From IMG/VR virus record IMGVR_UViG_2859827302_000006: a stretch of DNA of 12,725 nucleotides; one strand, given 5' to 3'. The DNA comes from a virus. Taxonomy: Duplodnaviria > Heunggongvirae > Uroviricota > Caudoviricetes. How positions within the stretch are numbered: the first letter of the stretch is position 1; each line of letters opens with the position of its first letter. The notes under the pieces were generated by a model. The model was not told the origin of the DNA, made no database searches, and saw only the letters and a program-made list of their open reading frames with translations. The position numbers were made by a program, and so were the translations under genes. Of the stretch, positions 6,484-12,725 are shown in pieces.

Positions 6484-6657
6484 TTTTTCAAGCGTCTCAC
6501 TTCGTCGCAGTTGGGATTTTCGGTTTTTCTATGTGTGTGTTTCATAAGTATTTTTTTACCCCTCACTTTTGAGGATGTATACAGGTCGAAAAGTGAGGGA
6601 GAGCGGGCTAATTTTGGCCCTCTTTCTATCCCCCTCGCTTTTGCTCCTCACTTTTAT
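6463..6657. repeat. Iteron array, putative replication origin: seven copies of CTCACTTTT (two variants, one inverted) around an AT-rich spacer
   Basis: Copies at 6465-6475, 6478-6488, 6495-6504 (variant), 6561-6570, 6589-6599 (inverted), 6634-6642 (variant) and 6646-6655; AT-rich stretch 6510-6560; lies directly 3-prime of the Rep ATPase gene. Confidence 0.6.
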
Positions 6658-8054
6658 AGCGGCGCTACATCATCCCCATCGATACGAATAACCCCATCTT
6701 TTTCCAGCTTGTACAGCCAGCGCCGGAAGTTTTTCATTTCATACCCCAGCTTTTTCATGTCATCACGTAACAGCGGGATCGTGCACTTGTCGCCGTTCTG
6801 TGTGCGTGAACGGATGCACCCCCATAGCGCGGTATGGTTTTCCGTCTTGTTCCCTGCCTCCTCGATGCGCTCCAGTTCAACAGGAGGGCGCGGATCATCC
6901 ACCACCACCAGCGACGTGATTAATTCACCGTCAGCGTCGGTAAAAAGCTCCACCACGCGTAAGTCATATGCGGCTTCTTTGAGTTCCTCCGCGTCCTTCA
7001 TTTTGGTGCATGAGATAACCAGCGCTTCGCTTCCTGCGTCCTCCCTGCGTATCCGGTATTCAGCATCCAGCGAAGCACGAAATGCACTGGAACCGCGCGC
7101 GCCTTTCGTCTCATCCTTGCCGGAATGGTGAACCACCAGCACCGTGGCCCCTGTGCGTCGTTTCAGTTCGTCACAACCACGGATAAACGCCCCCATATCA
7201 CGGGAATCATTTTCATCATTCCCACCAAAGCAACGCGCCAGCGTATCCAGAATAATCATGCGTACAGGTTTACCCGTTTCCCGCTCCACCTGACGGGCAG
7301 CGATAACCATTTCATCAACATCAAGCGGGGCAGCCGGAAAGATGGGGCGGTTTACCAGATACAGATTTTTCACCTGCTCATCGTGCACAACCTCCCAGGC
7401 TTTTACACGACGCGGAACACCTATACCGCCTTCACCAACCACATAGAGAACCGCACCATGTGCAACCCTGCGGCCTCCCCACTGGCGACCAGTGGCAACA
7501 TGGCACGCCCACGATCCGGCAAGGAATGATTTATAGGACCCGCTAGCTCCGTATATGCTGCATAGCGATACCGCCGGAATAATCCCCTTAACCACGTAAT
7601 CCAGTTGCGTGTCGTATCCGGTAGATCCAACGCTCATCGGTAGCGTGGTTTTTCGCTGGTGGTTTTTTTCTTCCGCCGGCTCTTTCCCGCGCACCCGTTC
7701 CAGGTATTCGCGCCAGTTCTCCCGCATATGGCTGTGCATCCCTTCGGGGTAATAATTCGCATCAGTTACACCCGCCGCCGCCAGCTTGTGCGCAATGGCA
7801 TTAATATTTGATGGCCTGATGTGGCCTGCCTTGTACAGCCGGACACAATAGCGCCCCTCGTCGATGATTCTCAGGTCTGCCAGTTCATCCAGTTGATCAT
7901 CAGCCAGCACAACGGGAGGCACATTATCGCCAGCCAGTCGCCCGTCCTGTTCCTGCCACTGTTTCGCATGTGCCCAGGCATCACTACCCGCAAAAATAAT
8001 GACTTCGGTCATCTTGTCGTAAGGCTGTTTTTTTAAGTTCGGTGCGCTTTTCAT
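6654..8054 (-). CDS. RepA-like RecA-fold (AAA_25-type) replication ATPase, putative initiator-helicase (466 aa)
   Basis: Walker A GASGSYKS, Walker B-like MIILDTLARCFGG, motif VLVVHHSGKD and a basic C-terminal region; ATG at 8054 with AGGGG ribosome-binding site and ATGA overlap with the upstream gene. The N-terminal 150 aa have no recognisable primase motifs. Confidence 0.85.
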   Translation of the reverse strand: MKSAPNLKKQPYDKMTEVIIFAGSDAWAHAKQWQEQDGRLAGDNVPPVVLADDQLDELADLRIIDEGRYCVRLYKAGHIRPSNINAIAHKLAAAGVTDANYYPEGMHSHMRENWREYLERVRGKEPAEEKNHQRKTTLPMSVGSTGYDTQLDYVVKGIIPAVSLCSIYGASGSYKSFLAGSWACHVATGRQWGGRRVAHGAVLYVVGEGGIGVPRRVKAWEVVHDEQVKNLYLVNRPIFPAAPLDVDEMVIAARQVERETGKPVRMIILDTLARCFGGNDENDSRDMGAFIRGCDELKRRTGATVLVVHHSGKDETKGARGSSAFRASLDAEYRIRREDAGSEALVISCTKMKDAEELKEAAYDLRVVELFTDADGELITSLVVVDDPRPPVELERIEEAGNKTENHTALWGCIRSRTQNGDKCTIPLLRDDMKKLGYEMKNFRRWLYKLEKDGVIRIDGDDVAPL

Positions 8055-8350
8055 TTCTTGCCCCTGAATCCGTTAACCATGGTTTTCAGCTTCTGGATGT
8101 TTGCCCGTGCCCTGGCGTTGCTGGTGGGCACGTTATGCGGCGCGGTCTGTACCAGAGAAAAATCACGCCGGAACTGATAAACAGGCATCACGCAATCATA
8201 TTCGTAACCTTCACGGCGGTAGGTTACACGCCGTTCTTCCACGCCCTTAATCATTACCGTGCCGCCGTACTGGTCGCGGTAAATATCACCGCGCGTAAAT
8301 TTAGGGTGAGTGTTGCCACTGGCAGTTAAGCCAGAATATTTAAGTTTCAT
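8051..8350 (-). CDS. Hypothetical protein (99 aa)
   Basis: GGAGAA ribosome-binding site before the ATG at 8350; stop overlaps the Rep start (ATGA). Confidence 0.55.
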   Translation of the reverse strand: MKLKYSGLTASGNTHPKFTRGDIYRDQYGGTVMIKGVEERRVTYRREGYEYDCVMPVYQFRRDFSLVQTAPHNVPTSNARARANIQKLKTMVNGFRGKK

Positions 8351-8355
8351 TATTT

Positions 8356-8589
8356 TTATTCTCCGGTGTGCTGTTCTTTATATCTGTCGTGCAATAGATC
8401 TATTTCTTGCAGTTCCATTATTACAGGCTCAAGAAGCGTTATTAATGCCGTGGCAATTCTTGATTTTTGTTTGTCGCGTTCATTGTCGCCAAGTGTTTCA
8501 AGCCATATGCGCAATATTTCCAGCATGTTTTCACTGTGAGAAAGTGCAAGAAATGCGCGGTCTATTGTTTCGTGGTAAATATCACGCAT
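8356..8589 (-). CDS. Hypothetical protein (77 aa)
   Basis: ATG at 8589 with GAGGA upstream; start overlaps the stop of the 196-aa gene by 8 nt. Confidence 0.5.
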   Translation of the reverse strand: MRDIYHETIDRAFLALSHSENMLEILRIWLETLGDNERDKQKSRIATALITLLEPVIMELQEIDLLHDRYKEQHTGE

Positions 8590-9172
8590 GGCTTACATCC
8601 TCAGGAAATTTTCTTCTGTAACGCGCCTCTGCCACATATTCCGCATAATCGGCGGCGATATTCAGTACATCAAGCCCCGTTGATTTATATTCTCTCGTGG
8701 AAAGTAAGAAAAAAGCCGCTCTAATAAGTTCTGGCATTGACGAAAGCGCATCAGCCGCATCATCAGGAACGCCGGAAAATTCCTGTTTCAGGGAATTAAA
8801 ACGATCATCACGCATGTTTACCCCCTGAATGACCTGATAACCGCAACTGGTCAGCAACTCGATAAATTCCGGCAGTGTGCCGAAACAGCAATCATCACGC
8901 AGCCGTTCGCAGGATACCTCGACGCCGTTTTCGTAGTGACTCACCATACATCCGGTAAAATGCAGATCATCATCGTGATGGCTCGTTGACGGCTTAATCA
9001 GTCGCGCACGTTCCGCCAGTTCCAGCAATGCTTCAACGCTTCCGGCAATTGCACCATCCGGCAGGTGATAATTACGCACTATGCGCCCGTTCTCCACATT
9101 GACCAGCAACTGCCCGGTAAATTTCTCATCAAACTGAATGCTGTTAAGGTCAGAAATTGACAGATTATGCAT
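8582..9172 (-). CDS. Hypothetical protein (196 aa; start taken at the internal ATG 9172 rather than the ORF-track start 9190)
   Basis: AGGAGG sits 6 nt upstream of the ATG at 9172; protein-like composition, no recognisable motif. Confidence 0.65.
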   Translation of the reverse strand: MHNLSISDLNSIQFDEKFTGQLLVNVENGRIVRNYHLPDGAIAGSVEALLELAERARLIKPSTSHHDDDLHFTGCMVSHYENGVEVSCERLRDDCCFGTLPEFIELLTSCGYQVIQGVNMRDDRFNSLKQEFSGVPDDAADALSSMPELIRAAFFLLSTREYKSTGLDVLNIAADYAEYVAEARYRRKFPEDVSHA

Positions 9173-9386
9173 GGTGCACCTCCTGCACATCAGCCATGAT
9201 AATTTTTCCGGCCTTATCCAGTGCCTGATCGGCTTTTAGCTGCACAAATGCTAAATGGAAGATGCATTCTGATTCTCTGGCTGCGTGTTTATGCGCCCTG
9301 TCAGCAATAACAGAAATATCAATAAGCGCGTGCATCAGCGTAGTGAGCGCGGCGGCGGCTGCGTCCGGTGTGGTTTTATTGCACAT
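9165..9386 (-). CDS. Hypothetical small protein (73 aa; start at internal ATG 9386)
   Basis: GGAGGGG ribosome-binding site 4-5 nt upstream of the ATG at 9386; Ala-rich, helical-looking; short overlaps with both neighbours. Confidence 0.5.
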   Translation of the reverse strand: MCNKTTPDAAAAALTTLMHALIDISVIADRAHKHAARESECIFHLAFVQLKADQALDKAGKIIMADVQEVHHA

Positions 9387-9606
9387 GTACCCCTCCGCAT
9401 TTTTTTTCGTTAGAAATAAGCGTTCTTCTTTCCTGTTCATCGCTCAGGAATACGCAGACCTCACCGCTAAGGCGTTTAAGTAAGCCGATGATTGCCCCTG
9501 ATTCGCTGTCGGTCATCATGCTAGGGTAATCCTCTGCCAGTGCGCAAATAACTTCGATTTGGTGGGCGCGTTCTGCTGCCTGTTGTAGTGTGATTTCCTG
9601 GCTCAT
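9376..9606 (-). CDS. Hypothetical small protein (76 aa)
   Basis: ATG at 9606 overlaps the preceding stop (ATGA); GGGGG upstream. Confidence 0.5.
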   Translation of the reverse strand: MSQEITLQQAAERAHQIEVICALAEDYPSMMTDSESGAIIGLLKRLSGEVCVFLSDEQERRTLISNEKKCGGVHVQ

Positions 9607-9803
9607 AAGCCTACCCCCTGACGAATACGGGCAGCAAATACCATCACGCAGCCAGCCGGAGATTGCTGGCGTGCTTCCTGTTCGCTGGTGGCCTCAATGG
9701 TAATCACGCGCGGTTGTGCCGTGCTCAGGGCGATAAAACGCCAGATGTATTTATTCAGGTTGTGCGAGTCCCGCCCTTTCGGGTGTGTGGTATGATTTCT
9801 CAT
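9603..9803 (-). CDS. Hypothetical small protein (66 aa), first gene of the main leftward operon; it is the C-terminal part of the 428-codon stop-free frame
   Basis: In-frame ATG at 9803 with GAGG ribosome-binding site, about 90 nt downstream of the predicted minus-strand promoter. Confidence 0.4.
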   Translation of the reverse strand: MRNHTTHPKGRDSHNLNKYIWRFIALSTAQPRVITIEATSEQEARQQSPAGCVMVFAARIRQGVGL

Positions 9804-9900
9804 AGCTACCTCGATACTGTTGCTATCGTTGGTGGTTAGAAGCCCCGTTACTGCTCCTACAGTGCGGGGTTTCGTCGTTTCTGTGCCTTTCATCAATAAG

Positions 9901-9981
9901 GTGTAAGACACAATGTAAAACAATGGTGTCTTACACGTCAACCCTTCAAAATATTTTTTTTTCGTGTATATTGTCTTACAC
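9901..9981. promoter_or_regulatory. Divergent promoter/operator switch between the RHH gene (+) and the main operon (-)
   Basis: Inverted repeat GTGTAAGACAC (9901-9911) / GTGTCTTACAC (9926-9936) plus half-site GTCTTACAC (9973-9981); + promoter TTCAAA (9945-9950)-16 nt-TATATT (9967-9972); minus promoter TTGACG (complement of 9936-9941)-17 nt-TTACAT (complement of 9913-9918). Confidence 0.55.
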
Positions 9982-10002
9982 CAAAAACATGAGGGGTTAA
10001 AC

Positions 10003-10182
10003 ATGGCAACGGGTCCAAAGAATGCAAAATCACAATCTGTAACTGCACGTATTGCCCATGAAATTATTGAAGGCATGGAGAACGTGAAAGAAGAAGGCGA
10101 AAGCACGGGACAGTTTATAAACGCAGCCATGCGCGGCGAAATCAAACGCCGCCAGCGCCGCAAGGCCAAAGAGCAGGAGTAA
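10003..10182 (+). CDS. Ribbon-helix-helix (CopG/Arc/MetJ-like) DNA-binding protein, about 59 aa; candidate repressor of the switch
   Basis: ATG at 10003 with GAGGGG ribosome-binding site; the pattern SVTARIAHEIIEGMENVKEEGESTGQFINAAMRGEIKRR fits a beta-strand plus two helices; the ORF-track start at 9964 (GTG) lies inside the promoter. Confidence 0.7.
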   Translation: MATGPKNAKSQSVTARIAHEIIEGMENVKEEGESTGQFINAAMRGEIKRRQRRKAKEQE

Positions 10183-10224
10183 CCATCACCAGCGCCGTGG
10201 TGTGAGTAACTACGGCGCATTGCT

Positions 10225-10413
10225 ATGCAGGACAACACAATGACCGATAAAGAATTGACCAAAACATTATCACCGGCACGGAAAAGACGGCGCAGAAAGA
10301 TAGAGCATGAATCAGAAAGATTCGCGCCATGTGCTTTTGCCCTTGAGCAATTCCTTAAAGAGTACAGGGAAAAGCGCTCATTGCAGGTATGGCAACGAAC
10401 TGAACCAGACTGA
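10225..10413 (+). CDS. Possible small Arg/Lys-rich protein co-transcribed with the RHH gene (likely start ATG 10240)
   Basis: Weak AGGA ribosome-binding site; basic stretch ARKRRRRK; followed by a + strand terminator. Could instead be untranslated. Confidence 0.35.
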   Translation: MQDNTMTDKELTKTLSPARKRRRRKIEHESERFAPCAFALEQFLKEYREKRSLQVWQRTEPD

Positions 10414-10490
10414 TTGCATTGCCCACCAGCCGCAAATGTGGCATTATTGGCAATGCTCATGCGTTGGGGATAACGTGTAGCTTGTGTCGA

Positions 10491-10520
10491 GGGGCCACCG
10501 TAGCGGGTGGCCTTTGTTTT
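10491..10520 (+). terminator. Rho-independent terminator of the RHH transcription unit
   Basis: GGCCACC-GTAGCG-GGTGGCC (10493-10512) followed by TTTGTTTT; a second weaker hairpin plus T-run lies at about 10613-10646. Confidence 0.6.
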
Positions 10521-10526
10521 GCCCGT

Positions 10527-10889
10527 TATTCGGCAATTGTGGCGCTTCTCCACATGGTTGATATAATCCCACTGCTCAGATTCATTTTTTGCGCAGTAGG
10601 TTAATTGTTCACAAAGGCGCTCCGGCAACGGGGCGCTTTTTGTTTTTATTAGTTTGTAGAAACCTGACTCAGAGATAATGCTCATATTCTGATTGCCGTC
10701 AGGGGTGTAAGTTAAATTTACTCCCTTTTTATCATCAAACATCTGCAACGCTCTGGCGTTAACAATATTGGTTTCACTCCCGCCAGTAAGGCCGGAAATA
10801 ACCGGAATAATTTCGGCAAAATTTTGCAGATTCTGTTTTTCAGGACGAACGAAGCCCCGCCCTTGTTCGGGAGAATATCCAGTATTCAT
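10527..10889 (-). pseudogene. Possible decayed gene with a Bro-N-like antirepressor N-terminus; the frame runs on without a stop to 9603
   Basis: The first 95 or so codons look protein-like and include ISESGFYKLIKTKSAPLPE, reminiscent of the Bro-N motif; downstream the frame is antisense to the RHH operon and rich in C/S/R; weak ribosome-binding site. Confidence 0.3.
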
Positions 10890-10941
10890 GGTTAGATCTC
10901 TGTATTAGTGGATGGGTGGCGGCTGTGTGCCGCCAGCCTGA

Positions 10942-11130
10942 TTAGTGAACTGCCTCGCAGCTGTCCTTCCATGCCAGAACTTCGGATAAAGACCAGCCAA
11001 CGGAACGACCGCCCAGCTTACGCCGTGATGGGAATTGTCCGGCTTTTTCCAGGCGGTACCGACATGAGCGGCTCAGGCCTGTAAGTTGCTGACATTCTTT
11101 TTCACGTATAAAGCGATCTGTGCTTAACAC
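10942..11130 (-). CDS. alpA: AlpA-family (prophage CP4-57 / P4 Vis-like) HTH transcriptional regulator, 62 aa
   Basis: FIREKECQQLTGLSRSCRYRLEKAGQFPSRRKLGGRSVGWSLSEVLAW fits the AlpA/MerR-like HTH pattern; GTG start at 11130 with GGGGGA ribosome-binding site; directly downstream of int. Confidence 0.8.
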   Translation of the reverse strand: MLSTDRFIREKECQQLTGLSRSCRYRLEKAGQFPSRRKLGGRSVGWSLSEVLAWKDSCEAVH

Positions 11131-11164
11131 AATTCCCCCTTTGTTGTTTCTTAAAGAGTCATTG

Positions 11165-11215
11165 GGTGGATTATTGGGTTGGGTTGTGTCGGATTGTGTC
11201 AGGGTGTTTGTGGAA
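11165..11215. repeat. Repeated TTGTGTC / GGGTTG elements upstream of alpA
   Basis: GGGTTGGGTTGTGTCGGATTGTGTCAGGGTGTTTGTGG, with GTTGTGTC at 11183-11190 and ATTGTGTC at 11193-11200. Confidence 0.4.
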
Positions 11216-11404
11216 TGGCAAACACTGGCGGCGGTCGTTTTACAGAAGCAGGGGGAATGAGAATAAAAACTCTTTTAATTCATTATGATGCAAAGGCATA
11301 AAATTTTACTTTTACGCCTTTTTTACATATTTTTAAGAGTGATTCGCCAGTGTATAAAAAAACAGTACACCTATAAAAATCAAATGGTTATTACGATGGC
11401 TGAT

Positions 11405-11470
11405 TTTTAACCCGTTGTTCCATTTTGTTCCTTGTTGTTCGTCGTTGTGTCTCGTTGTTTCACGTTGTCC
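11405..11470. repeat. Six tandem 10-bp-phased GTTGT repeats between the int stop and alpA
   Basis: cccGTTGTTc / cattTTGTTc / cttGTTGTTc / gtcGTTGTGt / ctcGTTGTTt / cacGTTGTCc at 11411-11470, one per helical turn. Confidence 0.5.
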
Positions 11471-11495
11471 GCATCCTGAAAAATCGCAAAAAAAA

Positions 11496-12725
11496 TTATA
11501 TTTCTCTGGCTATTGGCAATGTGGTTACGTTTTCATGTGTTCCCGCCAGTATCCCTAACCGCTCCGTCCACATATCCAGCGCGTCACGTTTCGCATCCAG
11601 ATAACGGGAATGGTTATAGACTCGTTGCATCCCTGGCATCTGATGACCTGTAAGCTGCTCCACGACGTGAGGATCCACGCCTAAATCGTTCAGCATCGTT
11701 GTAAAGGTGCGCCGGATGTCATGCAGTGACCAGTGAGGGTGTTTTAGCCTCCTGTGCGCTAATCTGCCGTACTGCGACACGCTTGTTTCCTGTTTCACTT
11801 CCCCCAGCAATAAGCCCGTGTGCCTGTTCTGCTCCACCAGCTGCGTGACGAACGGCAGTATTGCTTCCGGTATGGGCCGGAATATTGCCACCTTCGTTTT
11901 GCTGTGTTCTTTCGGCACGGTCCAGAGCATTTCGGTAAAATCCCACTCGCTGATCTCCGATAACCTCAGTTCTACCGTCCGGCATCCGAAAACAATCAGG
12001 AGGCGGATTAGTGCGACGTAGTAAGGGGAAAATATTTTTTTGTCCAGTGCCTGCAATAATTCGCCAAGTTCTTTGGTGCTTAAGACACGCTCGCTTATAT
12101 CCGGTTTTTTCCCAACGTCCGCCACACTCATATCATCAAGAACGTTGCTGATTGCATAGCGCCGCCTCCGGCAGAACTTAAGCGCCTGTTTGCACGTCTG
12201 TAGCAAGAATCCGGCAGTAACAGGCGTTCGCTTTGCCACCTGGTCAAAACAGGCCAGCCAGTGCCGTAGCTCGCATTTATCCAGCGGCATAGCACCAATG
12301 TGCTGTATTACGTGATTATTAAGGCGCTTTTTCAGGGCGGCATAATCCACGCGGTTTTCCTTTACGTAAGACTCAAGCCAGTAGGTAAGCGCATCGCCAA
12401 CCGTTACGGGCTTTAACGCTTTCTGTACGGTGTAATTCATCTCATGACGTGGATTTTTCCCCTCAGCAAGCCAAGCGCGACACTGTGCCGCTTTTTCCCT
12501 GGCAGCTTTCAGACTCAGATCAGGATAATTTCCCAGCTTAATCCGTTCCGGTCGTGCTCCCCTTCCCGTTCCGGCCCTGTAGGTGAAATACCAGGTTAAA
12601 AGGCCGCTGGTTGAATGCCTGACGCTCAGGTTTCCACCGTCATTAAGAAAGGCTGTTTTTTGGGCGGGTGTGCCGTTGATTTTCCTTAGCTGTGTATCAC
12701 TCAGTTTGTTAAGTGCTCTGCGCAT
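11496..12725 (-). CDS. int: Tyrosine site-specific integrase, P4-type (409 aa); start codon at the window edge
   Basis: N-terminal arm-binding region with the LNDGGNLSV motif (compare P4 Int LADGGGLYL); C-terminal catalytic signature with R in GCRTVELR, HxxR in LHDIRRTF and the Tyr region GHQMPGMQRVYNHSRYL. Confidence 0.92.
   Translation of the reverse strand: MRRALNKLSDTQLRKINGTPAQKTAFLNDGGNLSVRHSTSGLLTWYFTYRAGTGRGARPERIKLGNYPDLSLKAAREKAAQCRAWLAEGKNPRHEMNYTVQKALKPVTVGDALTYWLESYVKENRVDYAALKKRLNNHVIQHIGAMPLDKCELRHWLACFDQVAKRTPVTAGFLLQTCKQALKFCRRRRYAISNVLDDMSVADVGKKPDISERVLSTKELGELLQALDKKIFSPYYVALIRLLIVFGCRTVELRLSEISEWDFTEMLWTVPKEHSKTKVAIFRPIPEAILPFVTQLVEQNRHTGLLLGEVKQETSVSQYGRLAHRRLKHPHWSLHDIRRTFTTMLNDLGVDPHVVEQLTGHQMPGMQRVYNHSRYLDAKRDALDMWTERLGILAGTHENVTTLPIAREI

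What the first reader, a model, noticed from the sequence alone, without database searches (positions are those of the whole stretch)
8051..9803. Operon of six small overlapping ORFs of unknown function upstream of the replication gene
Six ORFs (66, 76, 73, 196, 77 and 99 aa) are packed with 4-11 nt overlaps and ATGA junctions, most with GGAGG or GGGGG ribosome-binding sites, between the switch and the Rep ATPase. None shows a motif I recognise. In satellites this position typically holds excision, replication-accessory or helper-interference functions, and clusters of small coupled proteins are also typical of anti-phage or anti-helper cargo. The 196-aa protein (Cys/His-containing segment HHDDDLHFTGC...CERLRDDCC) is the most substantial candidate.
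Basis: inference. Interest (0 to 1): 0.5.

Follow-up and report, generated by a model that had tools for sequence, protein, structure and literature searches.

The report
Early operon of an E. coli phage satellite
The six small genes are real, but they are the already-annotated early operon of a well-studied type of E. coli phage satellite (an EcCICFT073-like PICI): two have recognised relatives (the P4 Kil/Icd-like cell-killing protein and the regulator RgdR) and the "196-aa protein" is two neighbouring genes fused by a one-base deletion.

Summary
Six minus-strand ORFs at 8051-9803 are tightly coupled and run into the replicase gene, and all are under purifying selection. They are not a new system. 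The island sits at the roxA/phoQ site and is a mosaic relative of the model satellite EcCICFT073. Its operon matches the CFT073 genes at 90-99% protein identity, except for ORF3 (50%) and the extra ORF4a.

- **ORF1** carries the Icd-like domain that P4 Kil also carries. It is the tail of a 428-codon stop-free frame, laid out like P4 eta/kil.
- **ORF6** is an RgdR orthologue (DUF4222, RGD motif intact, 93% identical to the tested C1493).
- **The 196-aa ORF** is a minority allele. A G6-to-G5 change fuses a 121-aa gene to a 77-aa gene, and its Cys/His residues are not conserved.
- **ORF2, 3, 4a, 4b and 5** are narrow, mostly acidic families not found in sequenced phages (tested for ORF4), with no defence-system or structural match.

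Best reading: this is the helper-induced early operon that delivers Kil, accessory proteins, RgdR and the replicase. Its expression is probably toxic, as reported for what looks like the same kind of operon in ECOR61. Interest is low to moderate.

The parts
9603..9803 (-). ORF1, 66 aa: Kil/Icd-like protein in its short form, basic (pI 10.8)
   Evidence: NF033153 E 1.4e-19, 69.9 bits against a cutoff of 25. P4 Kil hits the same model at E 1.6e-21. 97% identical to the CFT073 protein. dN/dS 0.14-0.29.
9603..10889 (-). Stop-free 428-codon frame that contains ORF1 at its 3' end. It is laid out like P4 eta and has a weak BRO-N-like N-terminus. It runs antisense through ylcI and through the promoter region.
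   Evidence: The frame is open for a median of 252 codons upstream in 139 loci, against 6 and 0 codons in the other two frames. 60 of 83 de-replicated upstream alleles are open for at least 100 codons. Bro-N match E 0.01. The P4 eta/kil logic is described in PMC10111431.
9376..9606 (-). ORF2, 76 aa, acidic, predicted function unknown
   Evidence: phrog_1478 E 3e-28. 98.7% identical to the CFT073 protein and 51% to Sakai ECs1579. Only 39 representatives among 1.84 billion proteins.
9400..9407 (-). A8 tract at the ORF2/ORF3 junction. The A7 allele fuses ORF2 to ORF3 in other islands.
   Evidence: fused proteins P0071 and P0065.
9165..9386 (-). ORF3, 73 aa, function unknown; exists as divergent alleles
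   Evidence: phrog_5146 E 2e-41. 50% identical to the CFT073 allele and 80-92% to others. dN/dS 0.25-0.36 against close alleles.
8816..9172 (-). ORF4a part of the 196-aa ORF, an independent 121-aa gene in most relatives. Acidic, with an internal duplication of a predicted beta-hairpin plus helix.
   Evidence: Repeat alignment score 47 against 19.7 +/- 3.8 for shuffles. AF2 model of low confidence, pLDDT 52. dN/dS 0.10-0.18. Absent from CFT073.
8821..8825 (-). Poly-G tract (G5) that is also the Shine-Dalgarno for ORF4b. G6 in relatives gives two separate genes.
   Evidence: Alignment. Tract lengths of 5, 6, 8, 9 and 10 occur in different islands. The exact fused protein is on 131 contigs, against at least 1000 for each split product.
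8582..8815 (-). ORF4b part, an independent 77-aa gene in most relatives. Acidic and helical. Found naturally fused to ORF4a, to ORF3-like, or to ORF2 plus ORF3-like.
   Evidence: phrog_24341 E 2e-40. Fusion architectures. dN/dS 0.18-0.19.
8356..8589 (-). ORF5, 77 aa, acidic, function unknown
   Evidence: phrog_2196 E 8e-42. 90% identical to the CFT073 protein and 26% to Sakai ECs1580. dN/dS 0.14-0.32.
8051..8350 (-). ORF6, 99 aa: RgdR orthologue (DUF4222), basic (pI 10.2), RGD at residues 20-22, coupled by ATGA to the replicase gene
6654..8054 (-). Replicase, a RepA-like AAA_25 helicase: last gene of the coupled series
   Evidence: PF13481 E 2e-43. phrog_2850. Annotated 'helicase RepA family protein' in relatives.
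9912..9941 (-). Sigma-70-like promoter TTGACG-18-TACATT facing the operon and lying inside the long frame. Its -35 TTGA is invariant in 7 diverse islands.
9901..9982 (.). Inverted and direct repeats of GTGTAAGACA/TGTCTTACAC that flank the -10 element and reach the divergent ylcI promoter; a probable operator
9833..9875 (-). Conserved leader hairpin followed by the invariant CUUCUAACCA, about 30 nt upstream of the ORF1 start codon
   Evidence: Covariance-model hit at 66 bits. 5 of 14 pairs show changes on both sides. No Rfam family matches.
9964..10182 (+). Divergently transcribed ylcI/ynfO-family gene; a candidate switch protein
   Evidence: NF041551 E 9e-18. Annotated as such in relatives.
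10942..11130 (-). alpA, the activator of Gram-negative PICIs, 100% identical to the CFT073 protein
   Evidence: PF05930 E 3e-18. Identity. Role described in PMC6092414.

Best explanation
The cluster is the distal part of the early operon of an EcCICFT073-type phage-inducible chromosomal island (PICI) integrated between roxA and phoQ. On the minus strand the order is alpA; a long eta-like frame with a nested Kil/Icd-like gene (ORF1); a variable set of small, mostly acidic proteins (ORF2, ORF3, ORF4a::4b, ORF5); RgdR (ORF6); and the replicase.

**Shown here:**
- the gene order and the coupling junctions;
- homology of ORF1 to P4 Kil and of ORF6 to RgdR;
- purifying selection on every ORF;
- the mosaic, shuffling nature of the middle genes.

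**Inferred mechanism:**
1. In the resting island a promoter inside the long frame (9912-9941) is held down through the flanking repeats, probably by the divergent YlcI-family protein, and possibly also through the conserved leader hairpin.
2. When a helper phage switches on alpA, AlpA auto-activates. Transcription from the alpA end reads through. Ribosomes translating the stop-free frame keep the transcript from terminating, as eta translation does in P4.
3. Overlapping stops and starts then pass ribosomes from cistron to cistron down to the replicase gene.
4. Kil/Icd-like arrests the cell. RgdR, a small basic protein with an SH3-like (Tudor/KOW-type) fold, binds DNA non-specifically and re-tunes host transcription. 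The middle proteins act together, given that they are repeatedly found fused to one another. Their target (host, helper or satellite replication) is not identified.
5. Because expression is toxic, triggering by a phage protein can look like abortive infection.
For: **Island identity.** The island has the same insertion site and gene order as EcCICFT073. Protein identities to CFT073: alpA 100%, Icd-like 97%, ORF2 98.7%, ORF4b 90%, ORF5 90%, RgdR 93%.

**ORF1.** NF033153 matches both ORF1 and P4 Kil.

**Long stop-free frame.**. The published P4 eta/kil logic, extended to PICI 'Bro zones', is in PMC10111431.

**Regulation.** AlpA activates EcCICFT073 genes and its own promoter, and its over-expression gives uncontrolled replication and loss of viability (PMC6092414). 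The promoter and repeats are; the -35 element is conserved.

**RgdR.** RgdR and C1493 activate LEE1, repress motility and bind DNA without sequence specificity (PMC3378721). RgdR is reported in all analysed E. coli PICIs.

**Middle genes.** Natural fusions 4a-4b, ORF3'-4b and ORF2-ORF3'-4b occur on 52 to 131 or more contigs.

**Selection.** dN/dS is below 0.4 in most comparisons.

**ECOR61.** Transposon suppressors of phage-protein-triggered death map to the Icd-like gene and the two following small genes. All six linked genes, including the primase, are needed. The gene sizes and order match Sakai ECs1577-1582, where ECs1579 is the ORF2 homologue.
Against: - No experiment addresses ORF2-5 in any island.
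- The link to ECOR61 rests on gene sizes and order. I could not read that contig.
- The promoter and operator are consensus matches only, and neither YlcI nor AlpA binding has been shown.
- The window has no C4/CI or isrK RNA, which are the elements that make the P4 scheme work. The anti-termination step is therefore argued by analogy.
- Part of the long open frame could be a shadow of the plus-strand genes.
- The ORF4 structural model is too poor to use (pLDDT 52).
Confidence: 0.65

Rival explanations
1. The cluster, or its middle genes, is a dedicated anti-phage or anti-helper module. On this view a sensor-effector set detects a phage protein and kills or arrests the cell, or blocks the helper, independently of the satellite's own life cycle.
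For: In ECOR61 an Icd-like gene plus five linked genes, including a primase, give growth arrest when phage gene orf24 is expressed, and the Icd-like gene is required. The middle genes are variable, shuffling and absent from phages, as accessory or conflict genes often are. The ORF2 family has only 39 representatives.
Against: None of the six proteins, the replicase or the neighbouring genes tested matches PADLOC. In EcCICFT073 deletion of rppA alone fully restored lambda plaque formation and nearly restored titres. The genes sit inside the operon that feeds the replicase, not in the accessory positions where PICIs are reported to carry accessory genes. The ECOR61 effect needs the whole operon including the primase, which fits ordinary island induction better than a self-contained defence system.
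Confidence: 0.2
2. The small proteins are replication accessories for the downstream replicase, such as a loader, an origin-binding partner or a copy-number regulator. P4 Cnr, encoded immediately upstream of the alpha primase gene, is the model.
For: DUF4222 lies directly upstream of the replicase gene, joined by ATGA in the window, in every island examined, whether the replicase is an AAA_25 helicase or a D5_N/DUF5906 primase. The first roughly 125 residues of both replicase types are related, at 54-67% identity. The position matches P4 ORF106, which I take from memory to be cnr.
Against: RgdR has no similarity to P4 ORF106 (no BLASTP alignment at all; ORF106 is DUF5375). The tested RgdR phenotypes are transcriptional. 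The middle genes come and go between islands that share the same replicase, which is unexpected for obligatory replisome parts.
Confidence: 0.12
3. The ORFs are decaying remnants or annotation artefacts of a cryptic prophage and have no function.
For: The island was long annotated as a defective prophage. ORF4 carries a frame-changing indel relative to most relatives. Frame-fusing homopolymer changes are common.
Against: dN/dS is well below 1 for each ORF in at least one moderately diverged comparison. Exact copies occur on hundreds to thousands of contigs. The indels seen keep the downstream gene in frame rather than truncating it. EcCICFT073, which carries the same operon, is a functional, inducible and transferable satellite.
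Confidence: 0.03

Closest known systems
EcCICFT073 (E. coli CFT073 PICI, roxA/phoQ site): the genes from the Icd-like gene to c1493, upstream of the primase
   Same: Same insertion site, same gene order and near-identical proteins: alpA 100%, Icd-like 97%, ORF2 98.7%, ORF4b 90%, ORF5 90%, RgdR 93%. Same capsid, decoration and RppA-like late genes.
   Different: The window carries the extra ORF4a gene fused to 4b, a different ORF3 allele (50% identity), a different ylcI allele (68%), and an AAA_25 RepA-type helicase in place of the 584-aa primase. No complete RefSeq E. coli genome holds exactly this mosaic; the best match covers 94% at 99% identity.
Bacteriophage P4 left operon (vis/ORF88, eta/kil with CI RNA, epsilon, orf151, ORF106, alpha)
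   Same: The layout is shared: an AlpA-family gene, then a long frame with a nested 65/66-aa Kil/Icd-like gene preceded by an internal promoter and a structured leader, then a few small genes, then the replicase. Kil and ORF1 share the NF033153 domain.
   Different: There is no C4/CI or isrK RNA in the window, although both are detected in P4 by the same search. None of ORF2-6 matches P4 epsilon (PF25738) or ORF106 (DUF5375). The PICI has a divergent ylcI gene inside the long frame, on the opposite strand.
RgdR (ECs1581, O-island 51 / Sp7 of E. coli O157:H7)
   Same: ORF6 has the same length (99 aa), is 80.8% identical, keeps RGD at residues 20-22, contains the DUF4222 domain, and occupies the same position immediately upstream of the replicase.
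   Different: The host island here is a classical PICI rather than the capsid-forming Sp7/EcCIEDL933 type. Whether this strain has a LEE to regulate is unknown. Across the family R20 is usually P, so the RGD motif is not a family-wide feature.
ECOR61 'prophage-encoded superinfection exclusion system' (Silas et al., bioRxiv 2023)
   Same: An Icd-like gene followed by overlapping small genes of 61 and 63 aa, with a primase among six linked genes. This is the same architecture as Sakai ECs1577-1582, whose 63-aa gene is the ORF2 homologue.
   Different: That Icd-like protein is annotated at 121 aa. Its trigger (orf24) comes from an accessory region that also carries the anti-restriction gene ocr.

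Membership tests
Gram-negative PICI, EcCICFT073 type | Tyrosine integrase at one end followed by alpA, both pointing inward | tested here: met
   int 11496-12725 and alpA 10942-11130 on the minus strand. Both are identical to the CFT073 proteins, as shown by the shared WP accessions for strain 500010 and CFT073.
Gram-negative PICI, EcCICFT073 type | Own replicase and SSB; about 10-15 kb; no tail or lysis genes; a chromosomal site not used by prophages | tested here: met
   AAA_25 replicase, SSB, capsid and decoration genes only, about 11 kb, located between phoQ and roxA. The same site is described for OI-51 and the CFT073 island.
Gram-negative PICI, EcCICFT073 type | Induction, replication and high-frequency transfer by a helper phage | not testable with these tools
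   Shown for EcCICFT073 with lambda and phi80 (PMC6092414), not for this island.
Icd/Kil family (NF033153) | Match to the 48-residue Icd-like domain above NCBI's cutoff | tested here: met
   69.9 bits against a cutoff of 25. P4 Kil scores 76.1 bits.
Icd/Kil family (NF033153) | Nested in frame at the end of a longer ORF that starts upstream of the proximal promoter (P4 eta/kil layout) | tested here: met
   428-codon frame 9603-10889 with a promoter-like site at 9912-9941 inside it. The feature is general across loci.
Icd/Kil family (NF033153) | Inhibits cell division or kills the cell on expression | not testable with these tools
   Reported for P4 Kil (via PMC10111431) and implied for the ECOR61 Icd-like gene.
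RgdR / DUF4222 | PF13973 domain above the gathering score | tested here: met
   85.7 bits against 27.
RgdR / DUF4222 | More than 77% identity to ECs1581 over the full 99 residues, and RGD at residues 20-22 (criteria of Flockhart et al.) | tested here: met
   80.8% over 99 aa, with R20-G21-D22 present. Criteria taken.
RgdR / DUF4222 | Activates LEE1/T3S and represses motility | not testable with these tools
   Shown for ECs1581 and for C1493, which is 93% identical to ORF6 (and the section headings).
Known anti-phage defence systems (PADLOC-DB 2.0) | Any component HMM match | tested here: not met
   Zero families at E <= 0.1 for all six ORFs, the replicase and three neighbours.
P4 epsilon (PF25738) and P4 ORF106 (DUF5375) | Sequence-family membership of any ORF in the cluster | tested here: not met
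   Pfam gives no such hits for the window ORFs, while the P4 proteins do hit these families. ORF6 against ORF106 gives no BLASTP alignment.
C4/CI antisense immunity RNA (RF01695) and isrK (RF01394) | Covariance-model match in the leader of the Kil/Icd gene | tested here: not met
   No match at the gathering score, nor at E <= 5 in 9500-11500. Positive control: P4 gives C4 at 74.9 bits and isrK at 60.8 bits.
   In homologues C75 becomes R, C88 becomes R and C95 becomes Y. Only C96 and C110 are nearly invariant. No Pfam or PDB match.

The most novel reading that the evidence does not exclude
EcCICFT073-type satellites may control their early operon with elements that have not been described:
- a conserved, covarying leader hairpin with an invariant CUUCUAACCA tail, standing in for the P4 CI/C4 immunity RNA;
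- a stop-free 'translated spacer' running antisense through the ylcI switch gene;
- variable acidic proteins between Kil and RgdR that would form a complex acting as the sensor or effector for phage proteins, making the satellite an abortive-infection device, with homopolymer tracts (G5-G10, A7/A8) toggling these proteins between separate and fused forms.
Probability: 0.15. Interest if true: 0.6.

Novelty: new member of a known kind. Interest (0 to 1): 0.3.

Why it matters
On its own the cluster is a mosaic allele of an operon already present in the model satellite EcCICFT073. Parts of it occur in about a third of complete E. coli genomes (1820 of 5426), so it does not define a new system.

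Its value is as a pointer. Four or five conserved, satellite-specific proteins in the best-studied Gram-negative PICI still have no known function. They lie between a cell-killing protein and a virulence-modulating regulator (RgdR). What appears to be the equivalent operon in another strain has been reported, without being called a PICI operon in the passages I read, as a phage-triggered cell-death system.

Clarifying these genes would connect satellite induction, host killing and virulence-gene cross-talk.

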